From positions 29,796 to 93,795 of IMG/VR virus record IMGVR_UViG_3300045988_024527: DNA of 64,000 nt. One strand, written 5' to 3'. The notes under the pieces were generated by a model. The model worked only from the letters and a program-made list of their open reading frames with translations. It was not told the origin of the DNA and ran no database searches. Position numbers and translations under genes: made by a program. This document shows positions 6,661 through 64,000 of the stretch, piece by piece (the stretch's first letter is position 1; each line of letters opens with the position of its first letter). Source of the stretch: a virus. Its lineage: Duplodnaviria > Heunggongvirae > Uroviricota > Caudoviricetes.

Positions 6661-9390
6661 TCAATGTACCTCATACCAGCTCTTACCAACCTTTGCTGTA
6701 CCAGTTACAAGTGTTTCTTTCCTCAAACCTAAGTTTTTTGAAGCTTGTCCATACATCCAGTCAGCAATTGCTTTCATATCCTGTGTCATACCCTCTGGAC
6801 ATTCCCAACTATTTTCATCGTGATATGCCAGAAGTAACCTTGCTCCGATAGCTGGTTTTCGAGCATTCAGTTTTGTCAGGCCATCTTCACAGGCTTTTCT
6901 TGCTGCTAGGTTGATGGCCTCATTCTGAATCTGTGCTTCCGAACTCATCAGGAGGTAGTTCAGTAGTTTATGTGGAGATTTGCACCATATCCATGCTCCA
7001 GCGACCCTGATATAACCACCTTTAGCAATTGAAGAATTCTTCCCAAAAACCTCTTCCAGAGCCTTTTTAGACGCCTTAAAATCGGCTTCTAAGCTATCAA
7101 GTAACTTCTTAATCTTTGGCAGACGCATATAGTAAGTTTGTTTAGTCAATGCACCTTCTTCCGTAGATGATGCCTTGATAGTTTTTGCAAACTTCTCGTC
7201 TCCGGCTCCAAATAACAGGGCGTAGATGCCATTTTTGCTCTTCTTACGGCCTTTTGTAATCTCGTGAAGAAGTTCCTCATCCTGTGTCTCCCTACAACGA
7301 ACAATATCTTCTTCCTTGTTCAGACCAAAGTAAATACTGTTCAGTGTATGCGCATCAGTCCCTGTGTAGACTTCATAGAGGTCGTTCTCAGCATCATAAC
7401 GAAGATACTTGTCAGTTTCTGGATTAAGATACTTATTGAGATGCTTGCAATAGTATCTGCCATCCTCTTGCTTAGTGAACTCTACCGACTCTTTACCCTC
7501 AGTTACTGCTTTAGTGAAGTCTTCATCACCCATAAAGTTACAAAGAAGAACTAGCTGTGCAGAGTTCTGGTCAACTGAAACAATGTTAGTCCCTTCCTCA
7601 CAAATCCAAACCTCCCTCATAGGTGCTCCATAGACAGCAGCACCAGACGGTACGTTTACAATACCATATTGTGTCATACGTCCAGTTGAAGTACCAAACA
7701 CCATTGCACCAGCACTAAGGCGACCATCTGGACGAATCTGGTTCAACCAACCTTTTTCATCATCCTTTGAGTTCTCAATAGTTCTGCGTCTGTGCATCAA
7801 AGTATAGTACTTAGCAATCTTCTGTCCAAGCTCACCTTCAATCGTATCATAAGATGATTCAGTAAGTTTTGGTGAAGTACGGATTAAGCAAGGTTCAAGC
7901 AAATCTGTGTACTTCTTCACAGACCAGTTATGCTCAATGTACTGTACACCTTCATGTTCAACATAACTCAAACCACACCGCTCGACCATTTCCTGCCACT
8001 TAGGATGCTTTGTAATCATCTTTTTATTGTCTTTGAAACGACAAACTTTGACAGGGCGACCATCTGAGTCTTTCTTGTAGTTCCAGTCATCTGGAATCCA
8101 ACCAACTGATTTCAAGTAGTCTTTAACAACTGCTACCTGAGTCATACGAGAAACTTCAAACTCAATTGGTGTATATGGTGCATCAATCAAACCTGTGTAG
8201 CGACTTGACTCAAGTTCAAAGTGGTTAACAACATGGCTGTTATAGTACTTCACAGTTTTGACTGTTTTTACTGGCTTCCAGTCTTTGCATTTCTTACCAA
8301 TCTTTGCATTCAACTCATTGCAAATTGCACGAGCATCCTTCATTGCTACAAAGCCTTCCTTGTACTCTTCACCAGTTACAGAGTTGGTTGGTGTATAGCA
8401 ATTTCTCTTTTCAATGTTAAAAATCTTTGTAGTTGGCTTACCAAATGGTTTGATTTCGTATGTCTGCATCTCGCCATTACGTACCTGCTGACGATACTTT
8501 GTCTTAGGGTACTTGGTAATTCTTTTCAGTCCATCTGCATGACCAAATGTTTCAACATACTCATTCCAAGCTTTTGCAAACTCTTCTCCAGTGACTTTAC
8601 CTTTGGTCTTAATAGTTGGAGGAAGATGTGGTTCAACCTCTGAAGCAAGCTCATTAGTCAATTTGTCAAGTTCCTTCACATGGAACTCCATAAGCTCTTT
8701 ATCAGCTTTCCAGCCATTGATAGCTTGTTGACTCATCCAGAAAGATGTTTCTTTAGCTCGCATATAGGTTTCATAAGTATCTATGCCACACTTCTTAAGC
8801 TTGAGATACTCATTATCAAGTGCCCGTTTAGCTTTGGCGTTAATACGGATGTCTTCTACAACACGAGTGAAGATTTCTGCATTCCATACACCCCAATGCT
8901 CAATCTCTGGTTTACGAACACCAACACGAGCACCCCATGCAGCCAAACCATGAGCACCTTTATAACCCTTCGGAGTTGGTCTATCCATCCACTGAACACG
9001 AGACTGGATAAGAGAATCCTGAAAGAAATTACTCCACGGTTTACACTTTGGATTATCAAAGTTCCATAAATCAGGTGCAATGTGATTGAAAACCCACCAG
9101 TCATAACCGAGGCCGTTATGGATACAAAGTCGTTTTGCCTTTAACGCAAACTCAACACCTTCACGTAAACTACCCTTAATGTACTTGGTATACTTGTGAC
9201 CGAGGATAGGCTCATCTGTAAAGACCCATACAGGTGGCTCTTCATCGTCAGATTTATAGTCTGCGAAAGCCATTACGTGCACTTTAGTGAACTCAAGGAG
9301 TAAACCATCAGTTTCTGTATCACCAACTAAATGTAAGTTTTTAAAATCTACGTTTTCCATTTTTACTCCCTCTAAAATCATTAACCTCAT
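6661..9390 (-). CDS. DNA polymerase, family A, with 3'-5' proofreading exonuclease
   Basis: Exo I motif VGDTETDGLL; Pol motif C YHDE; motif B-like KKSKNGIYALLFGAG; 909 aa. Confidence 0.9.
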   Translation of the reverse strand: MRLMILEGVKMENVDFKNLHLVGDTETDGLLLEFTKVHVMAFADYKSDDEEPPVWVFTDEPILGHKYTKYIKGSLREGVEFALKAKRLCIHNGLGYDWWVFNHIAPDLWNFDNPKCKPWSNFFQDSLIQSRVQWMDRPTPKGYKGAHGLAAWGARVGVRKPEIEHWGVWNAEIFTRVVEDIRINAKAKRALDNEYLKLKKCGIDTYETYMRAKETSFWMSQQAINGWKADKELMEFHVKELDKLTNELASEVEPHLPPTIKTKGKVTGEEFAKAWNEYVETFGHADGLKRITKYPKTKYRQQVRNGEMQTYEIKPFGKPTTKIFNIEKRNCYTPTNSVTGEEYKEGFVAMKDARAICNELNAKIGKKCKDWKPVKTVKTVKYYNSHVVNHFELESSRYTGLIDAPYTPIEFEVSRMTQVAVVKDYLKSVGWIPDDWNYKKDSDGRPVKVCRFKDNKKMITKHPKWQEMVERCGLSYVEHEGVQYIEHNWSVKKYTDLLEPCLIRTSPKLTESSYDTIEGELGQKIAKYYTLMHRRRTIENSKDDEKGWLNQIRPDGRLSAGAMVFGTSTGRMTQYGIVNVPSGAAVYGAPMREVWICEEGTNIVSVDQNSAQLVLLCNFMGDEDFTKAVTEGKESVEFTKQEDGRYYCKHLNKYLNPETDKYLRYDAENDLYEVYTGTDAHTLNSIYFGLNKEEDIVRCRETQDEELLHEITKGRKKSKNGIYALLFGAGDEKFAKTIKASSTEEGALTKQTYYMRLPKIKKLLDSLEADFKASKKALEEVFGKNSSIAKGGYIRVAGAWIWCKSPHKLLNYLLMSSEAQIQNEAINLAARKACEDGLTKLNARKPAIGARLLLAYHDENSWECPEGMTQDMKAIADWMYGQASKNLGLRKETLVTGTAKVGKSWYEVH

Positions 9391-9430
9391 ACATTACTGC
9401 AAAAAATTATAAAAAGCAAGTTGACAATGC

Positions 9431-9443
9431 ACTTGACAAGGTG
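9431..9443 (+). promoter_or_regulatory. conserved 13-mer ACTTGACAAGGTG (promoter-associated motif)
   Basis: same 12-13-mer at 25920-25931 and 55230-55242, each at the start of a plus-strand gene block; tandem TTGACA boxes. Confidence 0.45.
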
Positions 9444-9617
9444 TTAATCTTTGCGAAGTGGGTTTTTACTTAAAAGGTTACTTAACAGTTTAACTATACA
9501 GATACTTTAAAACTCTTAAAAGATTATTTAATAGCTTTTAAAAAGCTTTAAAGTATAACGTATAGAATACGTTAAGATAAAAGATTAAAACTTAATAGTT
9601 ACTTAAAAGAGGCTTAC

Positions 9618-46081: not shown

Positions 46082-46330
46082 ATGGCAACTATCCGCGCTA
46101 CTGTTAACGAGTTCGGTTTTTCCTCTCTGGATGTTAAATTTGACATTGCAGGCACTGATAATGCCTTTGAAATGGTGAAAGGTCTTATCAGTCAGACCAT
46201 CAAAGATTATAATCCTTCGGATGAGTTCTGGGAGGAAACAAAACAAGAAGTTCTCAAGGATGGTTATACTTATCACTATTGGGGAGAAAAAATCGTCTCC
46301 CTGTACTACAACAAACAAGATTATAACTAA
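46082..46330 (+). CDS. small hypothetical protein (cassette array gene 14)
   Basis: 82 aa ORF. Confidence 0.5.
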   Translation: MATIRATVNEFGFSSLDVKFDIAGTDNAFEMVKGLISQTIKDYNPSDEFWEETKQEVLKDGYTYHYWGEKIVSLYYNKQDYN

Positions 46331-48115
46331 TCGACGCAGCGGGGCTAAATAGCCCCAGATACCTTTATACAGCCCCTCATAGGGGCTTTTTTACGTCTAT
46401 CGAATCCTTATACAATCTCTTTCCATCACCTTTCCAGAATCTTATCAGACCTTAAAAGCAATAACTCTATAGTCTACTCTATAACCTCTTATCAAATCAA
46501 CTTAAATAAAAGCCAATAACCCCAGAAAGGGGATGGCCCATTTAAACGCTCTATAACGCTCTATAACAGCCTTATTAACCTAACTTAAGGGATTGCATTA
46601 ACCTATCTTAAAAAGCTCTTTACAGGGCTTTATAGAGACTTAAAAGAATCTTATAAGGGTGTAAGCTTATAGGCTGGTTAGTATCTTGTGAATGGTTAAA
46701 CAACCCCCTTGCTAGTCACTAAAAAGCATGTTATAGGGGCTATAAAGTTACTTCAAAGTTACGTAAAAGTAGCTTAAAAGTTACGTAAATGCTAGCCCCC
46801 TTAACATTTTCTTAACATTTTCTTAACAAACCCTACACAGTTATACTTTTAAGACACTTGTTAGCAACTTGTTAGCCCCTTGTTAAATCTCTGTTAAGAC
46901 CACGTAAAAGCCTTGTAAGAGTCTTTGACATAGCCTTAAAAGCTTCTGTAAAGCCCTATAAAGAGGTGTCTGTACAGTTGGGGGGTAGATACTAGGAAGA
47001 GGCTTAAAAGAGCTTATAAAGAGCTATAGAGAGCTTTTAAGAGGGCTATTTAGAGAATCACTAAGAAGGGAAAGGGAACGATAAGAAAAAGAGAGTTATG
47101 TTTGTAAACAACCACTGTGACCATGTTAATAGCTTGTTAAAAAGATTAAACACTTGTTAGAAACTTGTTAATTATCTTAATTGGTATTGTTACCAATCCC
47201 TACAAAATAACTCTTAAAAATTAACTAATTAGTTCTTGTTAGTCATCTGTTAAGCCTCTGTAAAGCCTATTCAGCACTTGTTAATTGGTATTGTTACCAA
47301 TCCCTAGAAAACTGTTACATCCTTGTTAGTTCTGTTAAGAATCTGTTAAGACCTTTGAAGAGATGTTAAGAAGATGTGAGAACTGTTAAGAGATTGTTAA
47401 GGATATTTTAAAATTTTGCAAAGTACTTGTAAGGGAGCTGTTAAGGGCTACCAAGCAGATATACATCATGAGGTAGATTCTACCGAATCAACTAGACAGA
47501 TATTTTTCAGTTCCTTCAAAGACCCTAAAAAATGACTTGATAGTCCTATTTTATAAAAATTTTAAAATTCTGAATAATTACCTATACAGTCTTTTAAAAA
47601 TACAGGTAGAAACAGGCTTATAAGATACCTTGTTAGTACCGTGTTAGACCTTGTGAGATAAGGTCTGTAAAGATATTCCTGTTAAGTTTGTTAAAACAGT
47701 CTATATAGAGGCTTAGTAATACCTAGTGAACACCTATAGAGGGTATCATAGGTAACCTAGAGATTAAGAGATGTATAGGAGCTTCTAAGAGGGTGTAGAG
47801 GGATGGTTAAGGTGATTGTATAGGTTGTTAAGAAGGTTTGTTAGAAGAGTGTTTAGAAGGCTTGTTAGAGGGCTAGTTAGAAGGGTTATACAGAGGGGCT
47901 ATTAAGACCACTAGATAGTTACTAAGATACTATATAGTACTATATAACTATATATAGAGAGTAAGATTAAGAAGGTTGTTAAGAAGGATAGATATTTTGT
48001 TCACATATGATGGTGACCCAGAGGTTGGGACAACCGATAAAATTTTATAAAAAATATAAATTTCGTAAATTTTACTCAATAAAAAGCCCCCAATTAAGGA
48101 GGCTCTTAAGATATT
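46331..48115. repeat. 1.8 kb ORF-free region dense in short degenerate direct and inverted repeats
   Basis: no ORF of 60 aa or more; families CTTGTTAG/CTGTTAAG/GTTAGAAG, duplicated TTAATTGGTATTGTTACCAATCCCTA (47170, 47280), tandem CGCTCTATAA and CATTTTCTTAAC doublets; between convergent gene blocks. Confidence 0.7.
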
Positions 48116-48796
48116 TTAAATCAGGTTTTCTAAAACTGTTTTCAGTGATGACTTAGTTGTCTGATAAAAATGAGTGAATCCATTGTTGTTATCGAATACT
48201 TGCATCATGATGTCATCCCCCTTGATTGGGTACACTCGGATATCATAGTGAAACCCATTAAAGACACAAGAACCACTACAGAATGCTCTAAAGTCATCCA
48301 CTGAGATATACTCTTCATGACCTGTGATTTTTATACAAACGCCTTTACTCGGTCTCTTAGGGTTGATATCTTCCATCACAGACATACTCTGTCCACCAAG
48401 AGATACCATAGTGACCACTTTACGGTTCTGCTGTTTAACATACATTTCAAGTTTCTGCAAAGTATCTTTATAGAACGGATAAGACTCCTTAACAAAGATA
48501 CCTTTTAGTGGCTCTTTACCATTCTTAACTTCTCTGATATGCCGTACTGATAAGATAAGCTGCTCTAGTCTGTTAAGGCTTTCTTTGGATAATGCTTCTT
48601 GAACATCATTCCAGTCAAGTACCAAGTACTTTCTCTCTAATTCAAACTGTTTTTCCATATCTATCAAATCCTGAAAATACTTCTTAGTGATTTTTGACCA
48701 CTCAACAAAATGAATCTTTTTCTTCTTCCGAAGGAGAACCATATCTTTCAAGTTCATCCAATTCATCCTGCGAAGGTGTCCCGTAAGATTCTTCAT
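48116..48796 (-). CDS. hypothetical protein
   Basis: 226 aa ORF. Confidence 0.5.
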   Translation of the reverse strand: MKNLTGHLRRMNWMNLKDMVLLRKKKKIHFVEWSKITKKYFQDLIDMEKQFELERKYLVLDWNDVQEALSKESLNRLEQLILSVRHIREVKNGKEPLKGIFVKESYPFYKDTLQKLEMYVKQQNRKVVTMVSLGGQSMSVMEDINPKRPSKGVCIKITGHEEYISVDDFRAFCSGSCVFNGFHYDIRVYPIKGDDIMMQVFDNNNGFTHFYQTTKSSLKTVLENLI

Positions 48797-57403: not shown

Positions 57404-57480
57404 CTCTGTTTAGCTCAGATTGGTAGAGCGTTCCGTTTGGGGCGGTAAGGCCGGAGGTTCAAGTCCTCCAACAGAGACCA
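57404..57480 (+). tRNA. tRNA-Pro (anticodon UGG), hand-folded
   Basis: acceptor CTCTGTT/AACAGAG, T-arm GGAGG-TTCAAGT-CCTCC, loop TTTGGGG, CCA encoded. Confidence 0.55.
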
Positions 57481-57487
57481 AATTAAT

Positions 57488-57565
57488 GTTCCAGTAGACA
57501 AAATGGTATAGTCACCACTCTTTCAAAGTGGATATCTGAGGGTTCAAATCCCTTCTGGAACGCCA
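57488..57565 (+). tRNA. tRNA-Glu (anticodon UUC), hand-folded
   Basis: acceptor GTTCCAG/CTGGAAC, anticodon stem CCACT/AGTGG loop CTTTCAA, CCA encoded. Confidence 0.55.
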
Positions 57566-57650
57566 GTTTTGACAGAAGACCGATTACAGCAAACAACTTT
57601 TACTTTTCGCGCATAGAAAACATAAAAAGCTTGGTCTGGTCATTAAGAAT

Positions 57651-57727
57651 CGCGGGTATAGAGAAAGGGCGTCTCACATGTCTCATTAGCATGGTAACGG
57701 TTGGTTCGACTCCAACACCCGCCTCCA
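57651..57727 (+). tRNA. tRNA-Met/Ile2 (anticodon CAU) with unpaired 1:72
   Basis: anticodon stem CATGT/GCATG loop CTCATTA, T-arm GTTGG-TTCGACT-CCAAC, C1-C72 mismatch. Confidence 0.45.
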
Positions 57728-57812
57728 AATTTACAGAAGACCGTTTACAGCAAAATTTAATGAAATTTTTAGCGGAAAAAATTGAAAGATACGGTCTGGT
57801 AATACTAAACAT

Positions 57813-57889
57813 GGTTAGGAAGCACATAAGGTATGTGCGGTCGCCTGTTAAGCGAATGGCACAGGGTTCGAGTCCCTGACTAACCGCCA
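57813..57889 (+). tRNA. tRNA-Asn (anticodon GUU)
   Basis: D-arm GCAC-ATAAGGTAT-GTGC, loop CTGTTAA, T-arm CAGGG-TTCGAGT-CCCTG, CCA. Confidence 0.6.
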
Positions 57890-57898
57890 AATTTAAAT

Positions 57899-57986
57899 GT
57901 GTCGTTATCCCGTAGATGGTAGCGGTGGGGACTGTAAATCCCTTGTCATTGAGACTCGGTAGGTTCGACTCCTACACGGCACACCA
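57899..57986 (+). tRNA. tRNA-Tyr (anticodon GUA), class II with long variable arm
   Basis: 88 nt; anticodon loop CTGTAAA; T-arm GTAGG-TTCGACT-CCTAC; CCA. Confidence 0.55.
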
Positions 57987-58008
57987 ATACTTAGCGAGAT
58001 ACTTAGTT

Positions 58009-58437
58009 ATGAGAGATGAAGTATACAAATCACAACTTGGTATGAGTTTAGGAACTGCACAAAACAGACTAGTAAAAGATTTGCTATTCGATTTGATATG
58101 TAAAACAAATCAAAATATATGTTTTCAGTGCGGAAAAGAAATGACTAGGGATGATTTCTCCATCGAGCATAAGATTCCGTGGAGACATAGTGAAAATGCA
58201 AAAGAGCTTTTCTTTTCATTAGATAATATTTCTTATAGTCATCTTAAATGTAATATGAAAGCAGCAAGACCAGCACAGGTATATGATAGGAAGCCTAAAC
58301 CAATTAAACACGGCACTGCACACAGCTACTCTAAAGGTTGTAGATGCGAGGAGTGTAGGCTGGCTAAGAATGCTGAGGGCAGGAAGCACTATAACCCAGA
58401 AAGGCGTAGGAAGAAGTATTTAAGAAATGGTACATAG
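58009..58437 (+). CDS. HNH endonuclease
   Basis: CFQCGKEM..FSIEHKIPW..HLKCN HNH motif; start set after tRNA-Tyr (track ORF 57916 overlaps tRNA). Confidence 0.6.
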   Translation: MRDEVYKSQLGMSLGTAQNRLVKDLLFDLICKTNQNICFQCGKEMTRDDFSIEHKIPWRHSENAKELFFSLDNISYSHLKCNMKAARPAQVYDRKPKPIKHGTAHSYSKGCRCEECRLAKNAEGRKHYNPERRRKKYLRNGT

Positions 58438-58443
58438 GGTTTT

Positions 58444-58519
58444 GGGGTGTTAGTTTAGACGGGTAAAATACTGGATTGTCTCTCCTGAGCCGCGAGTTCG
58501 ATTCTCGCACACCTCGCCA
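58444..58519 (+). tRNA. tRNA, anticodon unresolved (non-canonical anticodon arm; GUC/Asp possible)
   Basis: clear acceptor GGGGTGT/ACACCTC, T-arm GCGAG-TTCGATT-CTCGC and CCA; anticodon stem not clean. Confidence 0.4.
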
Positions 58520-58946
58520 ATTTTGAGAGGGCTATTTAGCCCCTCCCTTAAAGGGTTCTTACGAGTATCCTTTAAAGGAGCAGAAGACCAAATACAGCAA
58601 GTTACTTAAAATTTCAAGCCAATTCAATTTTGAAAAATTTAAAACTTGGTCTGGCTCAACAAATTTACAGAAGACCGTTTACAGCAAAACTTAAACAATC
58701 TATTTCTCCGGTAAAGAAAAGGCGAAGGTTCGATTCCTTCACTCGGCAGATGTCGAGTTGGTGTAATGGTAGCACTTAAGATGATAAACAACGGTCTGGT
58801 AATTATCTTTGTAGATAAGTTATTAAGCTTCCCTGTGAGTATGCGACCACAAAGGTGAAGGGTAAATTCTAGATTTAAACCCAAAAAGGCACATCGCTAC
58901 AGACCTTAAGCAAGTCTGGGTAGCTTATCTACAAAGATAATTTAAT

Positions 58947-59022
58947 GGAAGTGTAGCAGAATGGTGATGCGGCAGACTTTTAATCTGACAGGCGATGGGT
59001 TCGAATCCCTCCACTTCTACCA
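58947..59022 (+). tRNA. tRNA-Lys (anticodon UUU)
   Basis: acceptor GGAAGTG/CACTTCT, anticodon loop CTTTTAA, T-loop TTCGAAT, CCA. Confidence 0.5.
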
Positions 59023-59026
59023 ATAT

Positions 59027-59103
59027 GGTTCAGTCGCAGATAAGGTAATGCAAGGGTCTCATAAGCCCTATGAATGTGGGTTCGATTCCCATCTGAACCT
59101 CCA
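59027..59103 (+). tRNA. tRNA-Met (anticodon CAU)
   Basis: acceptor GGTTCAG/CTGAACC, anticodon stem AGGGT/GCCCT loop CTCATAA, T-arm GTGGG-TTCGATT-CCCAT, CCA. Confidence 0.55.
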
Positions 59104-59111
59104 ATTTATAG

Positions 59112-59606
59112 GTGATACTTATGATTTGTGCTAACAAAGATTGCGGAAATGAAGCCGTTAAAGGTGGAAAATTTTGCTCACGCTCTTGTTCTGCAAAAGT
59201 GAACAACAAGAAACACCCAAAGAGAAGTCAGGAAGGCTCTTGCCATTCATGCGGAAAGGTAACGCCAAAAGCGAGAAAATACTGTGACGAATGTATTGCA
59301 GGTGGAGTCATGAAAAAACATAAGACCCATCATGAAAAAAGCAAAGCCAAATCACTGCACGTTAAAAAGTCTCGTGACAGACTGAAGAAGGCTTTAGTTG
59401 ATTACAAGGGTGGTTGTTGTTCAATTTGTGGTTACAATAGGTGCATAAAGGCTCTAGAGTTTCACCACTTAGACCCTAAGACAAAAGACTTCACAGTAAG
59501 TAAAAAACACTACTCACTGGCTACAATGCAGTCTGAAGTTGATAAGTGTGTCTTGCTTTGTGCAAATTGTCACAGAGAAGTACACGAAGGGGTAACAATG
59601 CTGTGA
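59112..59606 (+). CDS. HNH endonuclease
   Basis: EFHHLDP..CVLLCANCHREVH HNH motif plus N-terminal Cys-rich region. Confidence 0.65.
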   Translation: MILMICANKDCGNEAVKGGKFCSRSCSAKVNNKKHPKRSQEGSCHSCGKVTPKARKYCDECIAGGVMKKHKTHHEKSKAKSLHVKKSRDRLKKALVDYKGGCCSICGYNRCIKALEFHHLDPKTKDFTVSKKHYSLATMQSEVDKCVLLCANCHREVHEGVTML

Positions 59607-59675
59607 AAGCACATATGGATGTGCGTTCGGCTGATAACCGAAAGGCAGAAGGTTCGAATCCTTCTCACAGTACCA
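59600..59675 (+). tRNA. tRNA-Ile (anticodon GAU)
   Basis: D-arm GCAC-ATATGGAT-GTGC, anticodon stem TTCGG/CCGAA loop CTGATAA, T-arm GAAGG-TTCGAAT-CCTTC, CCA; 5' end overlaps HNH stop. Confidence 0.6.
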
Positions 59676-59690
59676 ATTTCAAAAAAGTTG

Positions 59691-59719
59691 TTGACATTGA
59701 GATGTGACTACTTTATAGT
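59691..59719 (+). promoter_or_regulatory. consensus sigma70 promoter
   Basis: TTGACA-17 bp-TATAGT. Confidence 0.55.
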
Positions 59720-59923
59720 AACCTTAGTTTTCGTTGCGTAGCGTCTATTTTGCAAATTTAAAATAAATGCAAACGACAATGTTTTTCTGGCAGTAGCTTG
59801 ATAGGCTAAACACCAGTGAGGTCTTCCAATCCCTCATCAAAGAATTTGGCGTACTCGCCCACGGTATGATTAATAAGGTGGGCATCTTTAAGGGCTTTCT
59901 AAGAGAGTCTTTAAAGATAATTA

Positions 59924-60005
59924 CGGGGCGTATCTCAGCTGTCTTCTAAACAGCCGTTAACCGAGTAAGTGGAGTATGCGGGTTCGAGTCCTGCCGCCTC
60001 GACCA
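59924..60005 (+). tRNA. tRNA-like gene, non-canonical (possible anticodon UCU/Arg; no clear D-arm)
   Basis: acceptor CGGGGCG/CGCCTCG, T-arm GCGGG-TTCGAGT-CCTGC, CCA; stem-loop GCTGT-CTTCTAA-ACAGC. Confidence 0.4.
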
Positions 60006-60060
60006 ATTTTGGAGAAATCATGAAAACTTGTATTAGGTGCAAACTTAGCAAGGATGAATA

Positions 60061-60175
60061 GGTAAGGTGTTGAATGTTAAAAAAAAAAAATCCCATTATT
60101 TGACGAGATAGAAAACAACTCAGTAACAAATGGTGACTCTATCGAGCTAATAAAAAAAGTACAAACTCAATCCGC
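60061..60175 (+). repeat. direct repeat copy 1 (start of plasmid unit; repeated at 63889-64000)
   Basis: GGTAAGGTGTTGAATGTTAAAAA..CCCATTATTTGACGAGATAGAAAACAACTC..GCTC near-identical except poly-A length and one substitution. Confidence 0.85.
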
Positions 60176-60995
60176 TCACTTAATACTGAGTGATATTCCT
60201 TACGGAATAGGAGCTGATGATTGGGATGTACTTCATAAAAACTCGAACAATGCCTATCTAGGTTCAAGCCCCGCACAAAAATCAGCTGGTGCCATTTTCA
60301 AAAAAAGAGGAAAGCCTATAAATGGCTGGTCTGATGCAGATAGAAAAATACCTTTAGAGTATCAACAATGGTGTGAAGAGTGGGCGAGGGAATGGTATCG
60401 TGCCTTAAAACCAGGAGCTAGTGCAATCATTTTCGCTGGTAGGAGATTTTCACACAGATGTATTTGCGCAATGGAAAATGCTGGATTTAACCTCAGAGAT
60501 ATAATCGCATGGATGCGAACAAAAGCTCCTCATCGTGCACAAAGGCTAAGCTGCGTATATGAAAGGCGTGGGGACCAATATAACAAAGAAAAATGGGACG
60601 GCTGGAGGGTTGGAAACTTACAGCCAACATTTGAGCCAATACTATGGTTTTCAAAACCCTACAAAATAGGAGGGACTATTGCTGATAACGTTCTATTGCA
60701 TGGTGTTGGAGCATATAACCAAGATGCGTTCACAGCAAGAAATGGAAAACCTGAAAATGTAATACATGCTGGCTTTGAGAGAAATGAAGGTGGATTACAT
60801 CCAACGCAGAAGCCTGTTTCGCTGATGAAAGCGCTAATAGAACTAACTACTCAAGAAGGACAGCTAGTAATAGATCCATTTAGTGGTAGCGGTTCAACTC
60901 TTGTGGCAGCAAAAGAGCTGGGCAGAAACTATATAGGCTTCGAGTTTAACCCAGCATATGTAGAAATAAGCAAAAAAAGATTAGAAGATAAATAA
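60074..60995 (+). CDS. Type II DNA methyltransferase (amino-MTase, motif IV before motif I); frameshifted in A12 tract
   Basis: motif IV SDIPYG, motif I VIDPFSGSGST; ATG at 60074 is out of frame with the body (frame opens at 60081) because of 12-A run at 60079-60090; in-frame in second copy. Confidence 0.75.
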
Positions 60996-61922
60996 CTACT
61001 TAAGTGACAGTATATTATTATCTGTCACTTTATTTATTTGGTCTATCCTACTGTCTATTTTATGCATTTTTATCAACGCACTGACAGCCTCATCCTTGGT
61101 CATCATTAGCATCCTTGTACGTTCAGAAGATAGAAATTCTATAGCCATTTTTTTTGAAACGGCAATACCCTCAGTTGTGGCTGATTTTTCATCACTCCAA
61201 AGCTCAGCTATCCTACTATCATAGCTTAACATTGTTCTATTTATATTCACCCAATATTGCACACTATCTTTGCTAGGGTTGAGTAAAGATACAGATTTAA
61301 ATATTTCACCAAGAAGGTTTTTACTATCTTCAGTTGTTGCTATAGCTGAATATCTTATGAGAACGGCCAGGTGTGTATATGTAAAAACACAAACATTTCG
61401 CAATATAGCTTGCTGATATATTTGACTTGATTTTGTTGGCAACTGATATATTGGACATACAACCATTGCAAAGTCTTTGGTATTTCTCCAACCATCCATA
61501 GCCTGAACTTTAAAGTCTTTTTGATTTTTTGCAGTTCTACTCAAGCGAAATACTTTGGCATCTGCCACAAATGAATAGCTATCGCAAACAACCTCAACAT
61601 CAGCCGCATCTGCCCTTTCAGTCAAAACAATACTATTTAACCCTAAATATTTAAAACATTCTGATATCAGTGCATCTGTATACTTTGAGTACAGTTTTTC
61701 TTCACTTGAATCATGATCATATGACTCAGGTATTGCTGTGCATAACCTAAGGTGGTCTAGTAATGCTTGACTTCCAGATTTCTTAACCTCATCTATTATT
61801 TCATTTTCAACTCTGCTTGAGTCGTTAACAAAGTGACCACTTAGTTTTACTATTTCATCAATCCAGTAACGCCTTCTTATTATTGCATCTTCAGTAATGA
61901 ATTTAAAATTACATAAGTCCAT
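60996..61922 (-). CDS. putative Type II restriction endonuclease
   Basis: 308 aa ORF convergent and abutting the MTase; possible PD-(D/E)xK-like CD..VADAK; no direct motif proof. Confidence 0.45.
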   Translation of the reverse strand: MDLCNFKFITEDAIIRRRYWIDEIVKLSGHFVNDSSRVENEIIDEVKKSGSQALLDHLRLCTAIPESYDHDSSEEKLYSKYTDALISECFKYLGLNSIVLTERADAADVEVVCDSYSFVADAKVFRLSRTAKNQKDFKVQAMDGWRNTKDFAMVVCPIYQLPTKSSQIYQQAILRNVCVFTYTHLAVLIRYSAIATTEDSKNLLGEIFKSVSLLNPSKDSVQYWVNINRTMLSYDSRIAELWSDEKSATTEGIAVSKKMAIEFLSSERTRMLMMTKDEAVSALIKMHKIDSRIDQINKVTDNNILSLK

Positions 61923-62394
61923 TTTTAATACCCGATATAATTAATCAATAACTCAGTATAATCTCGCGATCATAACAGATTTTTTCATCTGCCGAATAAT
62001 AGAACTATCAGTTTATATGGCTAGAGATTCGCTTGTATTTACCATAACATCCGTTGCGTGCACCGCCTGAGAGGCTCTCAGGGCGTTTCTGACGGGAAAC
62101 CGGTAAAACAGGCAACAAACTACCCGAAAACCCGCCAGAAACGCGCAGGCTCTGTTTTTACGGCATGCATGAGTATGCGCGCAAGTGCATAGCGCGGAAA
62201 TTCACGCCATTCAGCCGGGGTAAGTCCTGTTTCCGTCGTTCTTCCCACCCGAAAACGGTGAACGGGGACGCAATTTATTGCGTGGCCGTGAGGCGTTGCC
62301 GGCACAGCCGGAAAACCCGTTTTCAGCACGTTCAGGAAGGGGGCCGATGTACGAATGGTTCAGGGAACGGATCTGAGGTAATCCGGTAGTTACT

Positions 62395-62525
62395 TTGTAG
62401 TTTATCTGTAGTTTTCTTGTAGTCTATTAGTAGTCCGCCACGGTTTTTGTAGTTTTTTTGTAGTCTGCCATCACTAATGCAAAACGTTTTTTGTAGTTTA
62501 TCTGTAGTTTTTGGTTGCTCAGATG
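62395..62525 (+). repeat. iteron-like direct repeats (TTGTAGTYT units)
   Basis: TTTGTAGTTTATCTGTAGTTTT twice plus degenerate TTGTAGTCT copies. Confidence 0.6.
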
Positions 62526-62808
62526 GTCATGCTTGCATGACCATCAAAGAATAGGACGCTTTTTAGCCAAATACCCCTTAACCTACGGAGAGCGCCCTAC
62601 CAAAAAAGATGATTTTTTATCCCTTAAATGGTCATACACCATACGCAACCGCGATTTTCATCGCAATTGCATGAATTAAAAGGTAAAAACTGAATTTCCC
62701 GTTTATTTATGTAATACGCAACGTATTACAACCACCTGTAATCACATGAAAATAAAGAAATAAGATGTAATACCGGCGTATTACACGTACGCTGACCAGC
62801 GAAAAAAG

Positions 62809-62958
62809 TTATAACGCTTCCCTGCCGACAGGCGGGCCAAAATCCACCGGGGCGTGCAGGTTCTCTTCAGTAACCTGCGCCATTAAATCAAAAAGGTCAT
62901 ATTCGCCGGGAAGCTGCGTATCAGTCGCATCCCGTTGTTCATCATATTCAGATGGCAT
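62809..62958 (-). CDS. small acidic hypothetical protein (plasmid)
   Basis: 49 aa ORF with ATG, just upstream of ori region; weak. Confidence 0.25.
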   Translation of the reverse strand: MPSEYDEQRDATDTQLPGEYDLFDLMAQVTEENLHAPVDFGPPVGREAL

Positions 62959-63029
62959 GGGGTGATATCCAGTAGCTGAAAGGTTGTTAGCGGGTTTCGG
63001 GGCGCAGCCCTGAACCAGTCACGTAGCGC

Positions 63030-63860
63030 TAGCGGAGTGTATCCGAGCTTATTATGTTGGCATGAGTGCGATGATCAGGAAAGTGCTTCATGTGGCAGGA
63101 GAAAAATGCAGCAGCGGAGCGTAAGCAGAATATGCGATACAGGAGATATTCCGCTTCCTCGCTCACTGACTCGCTGCGCTCGGTCGTTCGGCTGCGGCGA
63201 GCGGTACAGGCTTACGGGCGGGGCGGAAGTGTCCGGGAAGATGCCAGGGAGAGACGGAAAAGGGAAGCGAGAAGGTCGCGGCGAAGCCGTTTTTCCATAG
63301 GCTCCGCCCCCCTGACAAGCATCGCGAAATCTGACGCTCAAATCAGTGGTGGCGAAACCCGACAGGACTTAAAGATCCCAGGCGTTTCCCCCTGGTAGCT
63401 CCCTCGTGCGCTCTCCTGTTCCTGCCTTTCGGTTTACCGGTGTCATTCCGCTGTTATGGCCGCGTTTGTCTCATTCCACGCCTGACACTCAGTTCCGGGT
63501 AGGCAGTTCGCTCCAAGCTGGACTGTATGCACGAACCCCCCGTTCAGTCCGACTGCTGCGCCTTGTCCGGTAACTATCGTCTTGAGTCCAACCCGGAAAG
63601 ACACGATAAAACGCCACTGGCAGCAGCCATTGGTAACTGATTTACGGAGCGAAGCGTTAAGTGTAATAGAGTTCTTGAAGTGAGCGGCTTACTACAGCTA
63701 CACTGGAAGGACAAATTAGGTCACTGCGCTCCGTGAAAGCCAGTTACCACGGTTCAGAAGTTCCCCAACTAACTGAACCCTGAAAAAGCCGCCTCCCCAG
63801 GCGGTTTTTTCTTTTCAAAAGGCTACGACGAAAGGTTATCCTGCGTCAAGATAACTTTGG
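63030..63860. other. ColE1/p15A-family plasmid replication origin region
   Basis: long stretches match remembered p15A/pMB1 ori (TTTTCCATAGGCTCCGCCCCCCTGACAAGCATC..GCGTTTCCCCCTGG..GTTCGCTCCAAGCTGG..CACGAACCCCCCGTTCAG). Confidence 0.85.
63711..63808 (+). ncRNA. RNA I-like antisense replication control RNA
   Basis: position and similarity to ColE1/p15A RNA I; ends in terminator GCCGCCTCCCCAGGCGG + TTTTTTC. Confidence 0.6.
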
Positions 63861-63888
63861 TAGTTATAATGAAGTGAATAAACCATTG

Positions 63889-64000
63889 GTAAGGTGTTGA
63901 ATGTTAAAAAAAATCCCATTATTTGACGAGATAGAAAACAACTCCGTAACAAATGGTGACTCTATCGAGCTAATAAAAAAAGTACAAACTCAATCCGCTC
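63889..64000 (+). repeat. direct repeat copy 2 (restart of plasmid unit, MTase 5' end in frame with 8-A tract)
   Basis: matches 60061-60175; ATG at 63899 gives MLKKIPLFDEIENNSVTNGDSIELIKKVQTQSA. Confidence 0.85.

What the first reader, a model, noticed from the sequence alone, without database searches (positions are those of the whole stretch)
46331..48115. 1.8 kb ORF-free tract saturated with short degenerate repeats between convergent gene blocks
No ORF of 60 aa or more on either strand in a gene-dense phage. It contains dozens of related 8-12 bp units (CTTGTTAG, CTGTTAAG, GTTAGAAGRG), a duplicated 26-mer with inverted repeat TTGGTA-TTGT-TACCAA, and tandem doublets. Candidate roles are replication origin, packaging site, or a structured non-coding RNA locus.
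Basis: seen in the sequence. Interest (0 to 1): 0.65.

Follow-up and report, generated by a model that had tools for sequence, protein, structure and literature searches.

The report
Phage genome ends and terminal repeat
The gene-free, repeat-filled 1.8 kb is where this Felix O1-like phage's linear genome begins and ends: a roughly 650-bp terminal repeat plus its flanks, already mapped experimentally in a close relative, so it is real but largely known.

Summary
Window 46331-48115 is the largest ORF-free stretch of this Felixounavirus (1785 nt; next largest 395), and its short words are far more repeated than chance allows. Its identity is also settled: the centre (46795-47452) is the genus' short direct terminal repeat (DTR), present here as one collapsed copy. 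Three relatives' records carry exact 579-613-bp repeats at both ends with these boundaries. Ro111lw's PhageTerm-called 613-bp DTR aligns end to end, and the run-off-sequenced 608-bp DTR of UAB_Phi87 is the same segment within 8 nt. The tract is therefore the concatemer junction: right subterminal DNA, DTR, left subterminal DNA, with a terminator at each edge. I found no published description of three details. TGTTAAGGG occurs only twice in 64 kb, once at each DTR end, inverted. TGTTAAG-like words lie on one strand at 11-bp spacing and are better conserved than their spacers. An Erwinia phage keeps the layout with almost no sequence similarity. T7's junction is built the same way. The packaging-site reading is supported. 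A structured RNA has no support, and an origin has none beyond repeat style and one AT-rich stretch. Side lead: an 11-kb E. coli chromosomal island copies parts of this tract and may be a satellite.

The parts
46340..46395 (+). Two G+C hairpins ending the rightward gene block (GGGGCTAAATAGCCCC, then AGCCCCTCATAGGGGCT followed by a T run). The second is a terminator-like site.
   Evidence: Sequence; terminator scan 46371-46387; conserved in all relatives.
46396..46794 (.). Right-subterminal non-coding DNA, which is the last unique DNA before the repeat at the virion's right end. Its short words are mostly palindromic or reverse-oriented (CTCTATAAC, CTTAAAAG, CTTATAAG). An 11/22-bp tandem AAAGTTACGTA array (46744-46789) abuts the left cut site.
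   Evidence: length is 424-545 nt in 24 genomes.
46795..47452 (+). Direct terminal repeat (DTR), 658 bp, present as one collapsed copy. The virion DNA is inferred to start at 46795 (GCCCCCTTAACA...) and to end at 47452 (...TGTTAAGGGCTACC).
   Evidence: Exact end duplications with these boundaries in ZX4221 (591 bp), CRP22 (579 bp) and SPJ41 (613 bp). Ro111lw record positions 1-613 align to this span, and its paper reports a 613-bp DTR from PhageTerm. The run-off-sequenced DTR of UAB_Phi87 maps to 46803-47454. Boundary words are present in 24 of 24 genomes, giving DTR lengths of 569-658 bp.
46798..46833 (-). Three reverse-oriented units (CTTAACATTTT, the reverse complement of TGTTAAG) at 11-bp spacing, just inside the left DTR end. 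The first forms the inverted copy of TGTTAAGGG. Relatives have 2 to 5 copies.
46857..46965 (+). Forward array of about ten 11-bp-phased words (CTTGTTAG, CTTGTTAG, CTTGTTAA, CTGTTAAG, CGTAAAAG, CTTGTAAG, CTTAAAAG, CTGTAAAG, CTATAAAG).
47177..47311 (+). Two copies of a 31-mer (47177-47207 and 47281-47311) containing the palindrome TTGGTATTGTTACCAA. This is an accessory insertion duplicated in this phage, and part of the reason its DTR is the longest seen.
   Evidence: family D13, 97%; present once in only 3 of the 21 other aligned sequences; low conservation in these bins.
47322..47452 (+). Forward TGTTAAG array running into the right DTR end. It includes the conserved TTTTGCAAAG and ends in TGTTAAGGG (47439-47447) followed by CTACC. 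This is the best-conserved module and the proposed terminase recognition and right cleavage site.
   Evidence: Invariant in all 22 aligned sequences. It is the only segment still recognisable in Erwinia phages and in the E. coli island.
47453..47600 (+). First unique DNA inside the virion's left end. It holds the invariant AAGCAGATATACATC, then a ~30-nt insertion (47471-47500) shared only with one relative and with the E. coli island, then a conserved A+T-rich stretch (47545-47580).
47601..48086 (+). Left-subterminal non-coding DNA with further forward arrays (CTTGTTAG/CGTGTTAG at 47629-47647; a 12-bp-period GTTAGAAGG array at 47822-47886; CTATATAG words).
   Evidence: right-of-DTR length is 587-663 nt in 24 genomes.
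48087..48115 (-). Terminator-like hairpin ending the leftward gene block.

Best explanation
The tract is the genome-end region of a Felix O1-like myovirus, that is, the concatemer junction. Because the assembly was opened elsewhere, the two virion ends are joined here and the direct terminal repeat is collapsed to one copy (46795-47452). On its left lies the last unique DNA of the right end; on its right lies the first unique DNA of the left end.

Shown: homologous segments are exact repeats at both ends of relatives' virion genomes, and the boundaries were mapped both from reads and by run-off sequencing.

From general knowledge of short-DTR phages such as T7, T3 and SP6: replication yields head-to-tail concatemers with one repeat copy between genomes. 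Terminase binds this region, the DNA is cut at the two repeat boundaries, and the repeat is duplicated so that each packaged genome carries a copy at both ends.

Inferred here: TGTTAAGGG, which occurs only at the two boundaries and in inverted orientation, marks the two cleavage positions. This arrangement would place the two cuts on opposite strands about 650 bp apart, as staggered-nick duplication requires. The roughly 40 TGTTAAG-like words, on one strand at 11-bp (one helical turn) spacing, would be a one-face binding array for an oligomeric phage protein, most plausibly the small terminase, which loads or positions the cutting enzyme. Terminators on both sides keep transcription out of the region.
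For: Identity:
- Exact 591, 579 and 613-bp end duplications in ZX4221, CRP22 and SPJ41 share boundaries mapping to 46795 and 47452.
- Ro111lw record positions 1-613 align to 46795-47452, and its paper reports a 613-bp DTR from PhageTerm (PMC6454146). Pr103Blw has 581 bp (PMC8303462).
- UAB_Phi87: Bal31 shows unique ends, and the published 608-bp DTR sequence is this segment within 8 nt on the left and 2 nt on the right (PMC4837284 Fig. S1).
- The record of Erwinia phage Prophecy starts within 1 nt of the homologous left boundary.

Constraint:
- The tract is 90-95% identical within the genus and about 77% to a second group, and its three-part layout is kept in 24 of 24 genomes.
- Both boundaries are invariant.
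- Word positions are better conserved than spacers: 0.81 against 0.67 in the distant group, with 0 of about 240 circular shifts reaching this.

Cut-site word: TGTTAAGGG occurs twice in 128 kb of both strands, forward at 47439 and reverse at 46798.

Arrays: 38 forward and 7 reverse words; spacing of 11 bp occurs 13 times.

Analogy tested: T7's 160-bp DTR junction has 13 CCTAAAG copies, all on one strand, inside and flanking the repeat.

Insulation: a terminator at each edge and no excess of promoter-like sites.
Against: - No reads exist for this phage, so its own ends and the expected twofold coverage of the repeat are untested. The 658-bp length is inferred by homology.
- The run-off-sequenced left end of UAB_Phi87 lies 8 nt inside the read-based one. 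If that position is the true end, the symmetry of the two cut sites is weaker.
- Predicted terminal SpeI fragments of UAB_Phi87 (4435 and 2747 bp) differ by 70-110 bp from the published 4322 and 2819 bp. This is unexplained, but the GenBank record and the paper also give different genome lengths.
- No protein has been shown to bind the words, and the terminase genes lie outside the window.
- About 1.1 kb of the tract lies outside the repeat, and its role rests only on conservation and analogy.
Confidence: 0.85

Rival explanations
1. The repeats are iterons of a replication origin. A phage or host initiator would bind the 11-bp-phased words and open the nearby A+T-rich stretch. The terminal repeat would merely be located in the same region.
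For: The style is iteron-like: short words, one orientation, helical phasing. A conserved A+T-rich stretch lies at 47545-47580. In the E. coli island, the homologous segment sits just upstream of a weakly replication-initiator-like gene (phrog_270/678/428, E about 1e-6 to 1e-7).
Against: There are no DnaA-box or IHF consensus sites. The flanking phage genes belong to families of unknown function, none annotated as an initiator. GC skew tracks gene orientation only. The best-conserved module straddles the right cut site exactly. T7 has the same kind of arrays at its junction, and to my knowledge its primary origin lies elsewhere in the genome.
Confidence: 0.08
2. Only the terminal repeat and its two cut sites are functional. 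The surrounding arrays are slippage-prone, non-essential filler tolerated because nothing is transcribed there.
For: Unit copy number varies (2 to 5 copies at the left end). Indels of 11 and 22-25 nt are common. The accessory palindrome comes and goes. DTR length ranges from 569 to 658 bp.
Against: Word positions are significantly better conserved than spacers. Word orientation and total count are kept in all relatives (33-41 forward in the genus, 24-28 in the distant group). The architecture survives in an Erwinia phage with almost no sequence similarity. Lengths of all three segments are kept within narrow limits.
Confidence: 0.1
3. The arrays act at DNA entry or against the host rather than in packaging, for example as a pause signal for ejection, as in the T5 first-step-transfer region, or as a binding platform for a host nucleoid protein.
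For: The arrays lie at the DNA ends, one of which enters the cell first. The DNA is A+T-rich and phased, which is typical of curved DNA.
Against: No stepwise entry has been reported for Felix O1-like phages in the papers read. Genes at both ends are transcribed toward the ends, so no early gene block lies next to either end. Nothing here tests this explanation directly.
Confidence: 0.05
4. The tract encodes one or more structured non-coding RNAs.
For: It is a long conserved non-coding region.
Against: No Rfam match. Folding z-scores average -0.70, against -0.77 in coding controls. Promoter-like sites are at the chance level and terminators face inward. Indels come in units of the DNA repeat.
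Confidence: 0.02

Closest known systems
Direct terminal repeat of Felixounavirus UAB_Phi87 (Bardina et al. 2016, PMC4837284), with PhageTerm-called DTRs of Ro111lw (613 bp) and Pr103Blw (581 bp)
   Same: Homologous sequence with the same boundaries within a few nucleotides, the same position between the FelixO1p049 and p050 homologs, and the same size class.
   Different: This phage's copy is the longest seen (658 bp), because of a duplicated accessory 31-mer and other small insertions. The papers report length and sequence only. They do not mention the flanking 1.1 kb, the phased arrays or the inverted boundary word.
Bacteriophage T7 concatemer junction (160-bp terminal repeat with CCTAAAG arrays)
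   Same: Short exact DTR in an ORF-free junction. One short word is repeated on one strand only, inside and on both sides of the repeat (13 copies, often 13 bp apart). This is the class of 'short, several hundred bp exact DTR' ends (Casjens and Gilcrease 2009, as cited in PMC4837284).
   Different: The word differs (CCTAAAG against TGTTAAG-like), as do the spacing (13 against 11 bp), the repeat length (160 against about 600 bp) and the junction size. T7 has phage promoters (phiOR, phiOL) and host promoters next to the repeat, whereas this tract is bracketed by terminators and shows no promoter excess. The phages are unrelated (podovirus and myovirus). To my knowledge, the role of the T7 arrays is itself not fully settled.
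pac recognition sites built of phased short boxes bound by small terminase (SPP1 pacL/pacR; lambda cosB R sites), cited from general knowledge
   Same: Multiple short repeats at helical spacing next to the cleavage position, thought to wrap around or align an oligomeric small terminase.
   Different: Those phages make cohesive or permuted headful ends, whereas here the ends are fixed and terminally repeated. No small terminase has been identified or tested for this phage.

Membership tests
Short exact direct terminal repeat genome ends (T7/SP6-type class) | The same sequence is present, exactly, at both ends of virion DNA | tested here: met
   Met in homologous records: ZX4221 591 bp, CRP22 579 bp, SPJ41 613 bp, all 100% identical between the two ends. 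The window itself holds one collapsed copy; its own virion ends cannot be read without reads.
Short exact direct terminal repeat genome ends (T7/SP6-type class) | Homology of the candidate segment to an experimentally sequenced DTR | tested here: met
   The UAB_Phi87 Fig. S1 sequence (AACATTTTCTTAACA...GATGTTAAGGGCTACCAA) corresponds to window 46803-47454. The same boundary words delimit 614 bp in JN225449.
Short exact direct terminal repeat genome ends (T7/SP6-type class) | Unique, non-permuted ends | not testable with these tools
   Published Bal31 digestion of UAB_Phi87 removes two specific SpeI fragments (PMC4837284). My in-silico fragments flanking the tract are 4435 and 2747 bp, against the published 4322 and 2819 bp.
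Short exact direct terminal repeat genome ends (T7/SP6-type class) | Twofold read coverage and sharp read-start peaks at the boundaries | not testable with these tools
   No reads are available. PhageTerm calls are reported in papers for Ro111lw and Pr103Blw.
Short exact direct terminal repeat genome ends (T7/SP6-type class) | Large terminase belongs to a DTR-type clade | not tested
   The terminase gene lies outside the phage part of the window. Bardina et al. place the UAB_Phi87 terminase in a Felix O1-like DTR cluster.
T7-type concatemer junction architecture | ORF-free junction with a short word repeated on one strand, inside and flanking the repeat | tested here: met
   38 forward and 7 reverse words across all three segments. 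T7 has 13 CCTAAAG and 0 CTTTAGG.
T7-type concatemer junction architecture | Sequence relatedness to the T7 junction (same word and spacing) | tested here: not met
   The word and period differ: CCTAAAG at about 13 bp against TGTTAAG-like at 11 bp. It works like the T7 junction but is not a homolog.
T7-type concatemer junction architecture | Promoters directing transcription into or across the junction | tested here: not met
   T7 is annotated with phiOR, phiOL and the A0-A3 promoters next to the repeat. Here there are 7 promoter-like sites against 7.9 expected, and terminators at both edges. This is a consensus scan only.
Iteron-type replication origin | Iterons next to an initiator gene, with an A+T-rich unwinding element and host-factor boxes | tested here: inconclusive
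   Phased repeats and an A+T-rich stretch are present. There are no DnaA or IHF consensus sites. The neighbouring genes match only PHROG families of unknown function.
Structured non-coding RNA | Match to a known family, or unusual folding stability together with a promoter | tested here: not met
Headful pac site (P22/SPP1 type) | Circularly permuted ends generated from one initiation site | tested here: not met
   Independent records and methods give the same two fixed ends.

The most novel reading that the evidence does not exclude
Two linked readings are not excluded.

(1) The inverted TGTTAAGGG pair and the 11-bp-phased one-strand arrays could be the recognition and cleavage code of the Felix O1-type terminase. 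That would be an undescribed cis-acting system, conserved as far as Erwinia phages.

(2) An ~11-kb element inserted between yciI and tonB in 21 of 5426 complete E. coli genomes could be a satellite of these strictly lytic myoviruses. It carries copies of the right-end and mid-repeat modules of this tract, a 92%-identical copy of a helper tail gene (Dit-like), a diverged tape-measure gene, a replication-initiator-like gene and a large serine integrase. On this reading it uses the copied end signal to be replicated or packaged by the phage.
Probability: 0.3. Interest if true: 0.75.

Novelty: already known. Interest (0 to 1): 0.3.

Why it matters
Knowing that this tract is the genome end matters in several practical ways.

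- The sequence should be opened at 46795 and the repeat written at both ends. The true genome is about 0.66 kb longer than a collapsed assembly suggests.
- The small ORFs that some depositors annotate here are almost certainly spurious.
- Fixed ends with a short DTR are generally taken to mean little generalized transduction, which is relevant because Felix O1-like phages are used for Salmonella and E. coli biocontrol.

Beyond that, the fine structure gives directly testable candidates for the still-unknown packaging signal of this widely used phage group: an inverted boundary word, phased one-strand arrays, and one ~200-bp module conserved across genera.

The E. coli island that copies this module, if it proves to be a satellite, would be one exploiting a virulent Felix O1-type helper. 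It would also supply a natural minimal version of the signal.

Tried and rejected
- Literature: the Felix O1 genome paper, a comparative Felixounavirus paper, the PAK_P1/KPP10 paper and the PhageMaP essentiality study of Bas63 say nothing about this tract. A search for pacB mostly returned PacBio papers.
- EM motif discovery collapsed to a low-information YYTT-WW-AARR template instead of a sharp matrix. Long-range Fourier periodicity is only modestly above controls, because the arrays are short blocks with phase slips. Spacing between successive words was the informative measure.
- GC skew follows gene orientation and does not discriminate between roles.
- Rfam gave nothing in the tract, and folding z-scores were ordinary.
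- The UAB_Phi87 GenBank record is not opened at its ends. The SpeI digest identified the right fragments but the sizes are 70-110 bp off.
- NJ12's 127-bp end overlap was rejected as an assembler artefact.
- This phage is not present in the complete E. coli assemblies.
- Island follow-up: the island-specific boundary is absent from viral contigs. The shared 32-mer found only a relative of the phage and a predicted prophage region, so there is no evidence of independent packaging. There are no PADLOC defence hits and no clear iterons in its non-coding stretch.

Full report
**What is there**

The window is from a Felixounavirus, a Felix O1-like myovirus. The flagged tract matches 256 phage records, of which 184 cover at least 80% of it, mostly at 80-90% identity.

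The description holds at the stated coordinates. Window 46331-48115 has no ORF of 60 aa or more on either strand, and it is the largest such stretch in the phage part of the window (1785 nt; next largest 395 nt). It lies between a rightward gene block ending at 46330 and a leftward block starting at 48116. A terminator-like hairpin sits at each edge.

Repeat saturation is far beyond chance. There are 29 distinct 8-mers seen three or more times, against 3.0 +/- 1.9 in dinucleotide shuffles and at most 11 in any other equal-sized window. CTTGTTAG occurs 7 times in the tract and nowhere else in the window.

The duplicated element with TTGGTA-TTGT-TACCAA is real, as two 31-mers 97% identical. It is an accessory insertion that most relatives lack.

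**What it is**

Several independent GenBank records of relatives begin or end inside the tract.

- ZX4221, CRP22 and SPJ41 carry exact repeats of 591, 579 and 613 bp at both record ends. All start at GCCCCCTTAACA and end at GTTAAGGGCTACC. These boundaries map to window 46795 and 47452.
- Record positions 1-613 of Ro111lw align end to end with 46795-47452. Its paper reports a 613-bp direct terminal repeat called by PhageTerm from reads (PMC6454146).
- Pr103Blw has a 581-bp repeat (PMC8303462).
- For UAB_Phi87, Bal31 digestion showed unique ends, and run-off sequencing gave a 608-bp repeat (PMC4837284). The published sequence in Fig. S1 is this same segment, within 8 nt on the left and 2 nt on the right.

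The tract is therefore the concatemer junction of a short-DTR phage. It consists of the right-subterminal DNA (46331-46794), one collapsed copy of the terminal repeat (46795-47452, 658 bp) and the left-subterminal DNA (47453-48115). The source contig was simply opened elsewhere.

All 24 genomes I tested have both boundary words. Their predicted repeats are 569-658 bp, flanked by 424-545 and 587-663 nt. In the Felix O1 type record the 1622-bp tract is unannotated. Other depositors annotate nothing, 'terminator', 'repeat_region' or tiny hypothetical ORFs.

**Fine structure**

TGTTAAG-like words (NGT[T/A]AR) occur 38 times forward and 7 times in reverse. Thirteen successive spacings are exactly 11 bp, with further peaks at 22, 33 and 44.

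Three of the reverse copies form an 11-bp array just inside the left repeat end. The motif therefore points outward at both ends.

TGTTAAGGG occurs exactly twice in the 64-kb window counting both strands. It is forward at 47439, 5 nt before the right end, and reverse at 46798, 3 nt inside the left end.

Both boundary sequences are invariant in 22 aligned sequences, including a second group only about 77% identical overall. The unit next to the left end varies from 2 to 5 copies.

Word positions are better conserved than spacers. In the distant group the values are 0.81 and 0.67, and no circular shift reaches that difference. Within the genus they are 0.92 and 0.84, reached by about 2% of shifts.

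Erwinia phage Prophecy shares almost no nucleotide similarity with the tract. Even so, its record starts within 1 nt of the homologous left boundary. It also has the reverse units at that end, forward TGTTAAG arrays, and a recognisable right-end module.

**How it most likely works**

From general knowledge of T7-type phages, concatemers carry one repeat copy per junction. Terminase recognises the junction, cuts are made at both repeat boundaries, and the repeat is duplicated.

My inference is that the inverted TGTTAAGGG pair marks the two cuts. Inversion would put them on opposite strands, as staggered-nick duplication needs. The phased one-strand arrays would then be a one-face binding platform for an oligomeric phage protein, most plausibly the small terminase. 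The module around 47380-47600 is the core signal, because it is what survives in the most distant relatives. None of these steps is shown experimentally.

As a tested comparison, T7's 160-bp repeat sits in an ORF-free junction with 13 CCTAAAG copies. All are on one strand, inside and on both sides of the repeat. The principle is the same, but the word, spacing and lineage differ, and T7 has promoters there. This tract shows no promoter excess and is closed off by terminators.

**Rivals**

- Structured RNA: no Rfam match, ordinary folding z-scores, and indels in units of the DNA repeat rather than of 3.
- Hidden coding: 44-55 stops per frame, and only 13% of indels are multiples of 3.
- Replication origin: no DnaA or IHF consensus sites, neighbours of unknown function with none annotated as an initiator, and skew that follows transcription. 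This is not excluded as a second role.
- Filler DNA: argued against by word-specific conservation and by the conserved architecture.

**Weak points**

- No reads exist for this phage.
- There is an 8-nt disagreement at the left end between run-off and read-based calls.
- The predicted SpeI terminal fragments of UAB_Phi87 are 4435 and 2747 bp, against the published 4322 and 2819 bp.

**Novelty**

The terminal repeat of this genus is published, including its sequence, so the core of the finding is already known. In the searchable literature I found no description of the flanking arrays, their phasing and strand bias, the inverted boundary word, or conservation into Erwinia phages. These are modest additions.

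**Side lead**

A 45-54-nt stretch just outside the right cut (47454-47507) matches 21 of 5426 complete E. coli chromosomes at 96-100%.

In ACN001 and O55:H7 TB182A it lies in an ~11-kb element inserted between yciI and tonB. The element carries:
- a large serine recombinase and a small invertase;
- a weakly replication-initiator-like protein;
- a diverged tape-measure homolog;
- a Dit-like tail gene, 92% identical in protein to the Felixounavirus gene that follows the tape measure.

A profile search shows that the element retains about 85 nt upstream and 130 nt downstream of the right cut (E = 6e-14). One variant also retains a mid-repeat module (E = 6e-10).

This looks like a satellite-type element borrowing the phage's cis-acting end sequences, but a mosaic remnant is not excluded. 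I found no sign of independent packaging in viral contig collections.

Noticed in passing
window 47454-47507; E. coli ACN001 NZ_CP007442.1 1274500-1285750 (L036 2501-13800); O55:H7 TB182A NZ_CP038295.1 (L041 11574-22995): An ~11-kb element inserted between yciI and tonB in 21 of 5426 complete E. coli genomes carries homologs of the phage's right-end module (E = 6e-14), and in one variant also a mid-repeat module. It also has a Dit-like tail gene 92% identical in protein to the Felixounavirus one, a diverged tape-measure gene, a replication-initiator-like gene, an invertase and a large serine integrase. It is possibly a satellite of Felix O1-like phages. The window phage and one relative share a ~30-nt insertion with it, which suggests recent exchange.
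   Followed up: partly
window ~60000-64000 (RNAI at 63712-63813): The last ~3.5-4 kb of the window is not phage. It is 99.7% identical to a 3824-bp ColE1-type E. coli plasmid (NZ_AP027826.1) carrying a HindIII-family restriction-modification pair, and GC rises to 0.49. The window is therefore a composite of separate contigs. Homology to the phage ends near 59.92 kb, in the tRNA cluster.
   Followed up: partly
window 1-59900 (whole phage part); also L031, L032 (UAB_Phi87): GATC is completely absent: 0 observed against about 210 expected in 59.9 kb, and 0 in 69 kb of UAB_Phi87. CGCG, CCGG, CTAG and TCGA are also depleted. This is a striking avoidance of Dam/DpnII-type sites. I did not check whether it has been reported.
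   Followed up: partly
window 9391-9617: The divergent intergenic region next to the DNA polymerase gene (6661-9390, - strand) holds TTGACA-type promoter boxes and a cluster of the same word family (CTTAAAAG, CTTAACAG, CTTTAAAG). The Felix O1 paper's 57-bp intergenic repeats carry CTTAAAAG and CTGTAAAG too. The CTTAAAAG subclass of words may therefore have a regulatory role elsewhere in the genome.
   Followed up: no
window 46082-46330: The 82-aa gene left of the tract exists in two very different allelic forms among relatives (about 67-72% against 89-99% nucleotide identity to the window), while the adjacent non-coding tract stays 90-95% identical. This is a mosaic boundary right at the start of the tract.
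   Followed up: no
window 47177-47207 and 47281-47311: The 31-mer with the perfect palindrome TTGGTATTGTTACCAA is present in only a minority of relatives (single copy) and is duplicated here. It behaves like a small sporadic insertion inside the terminal repeat.
   Followed up: partly
JN225449 (UAB_Phi87), L032: The terminal SpeI fragments predicted from the GenBank record (4435 and 2747 bp) do not equal the published 4322 and 2819 bp. The record length (87,603) also differs from the paper's (87,669). The record appears not to be the version analysed in the paper.
   Followed up: partly
window 57404-60002: A cluster of at least 9 tRNA genes (Pro, Glu, Met, Asn, Tyr, Asp, Lys, Met, Ile), typical of the genus. 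The phage contig appears to break within this cluster.
   Followed up: no
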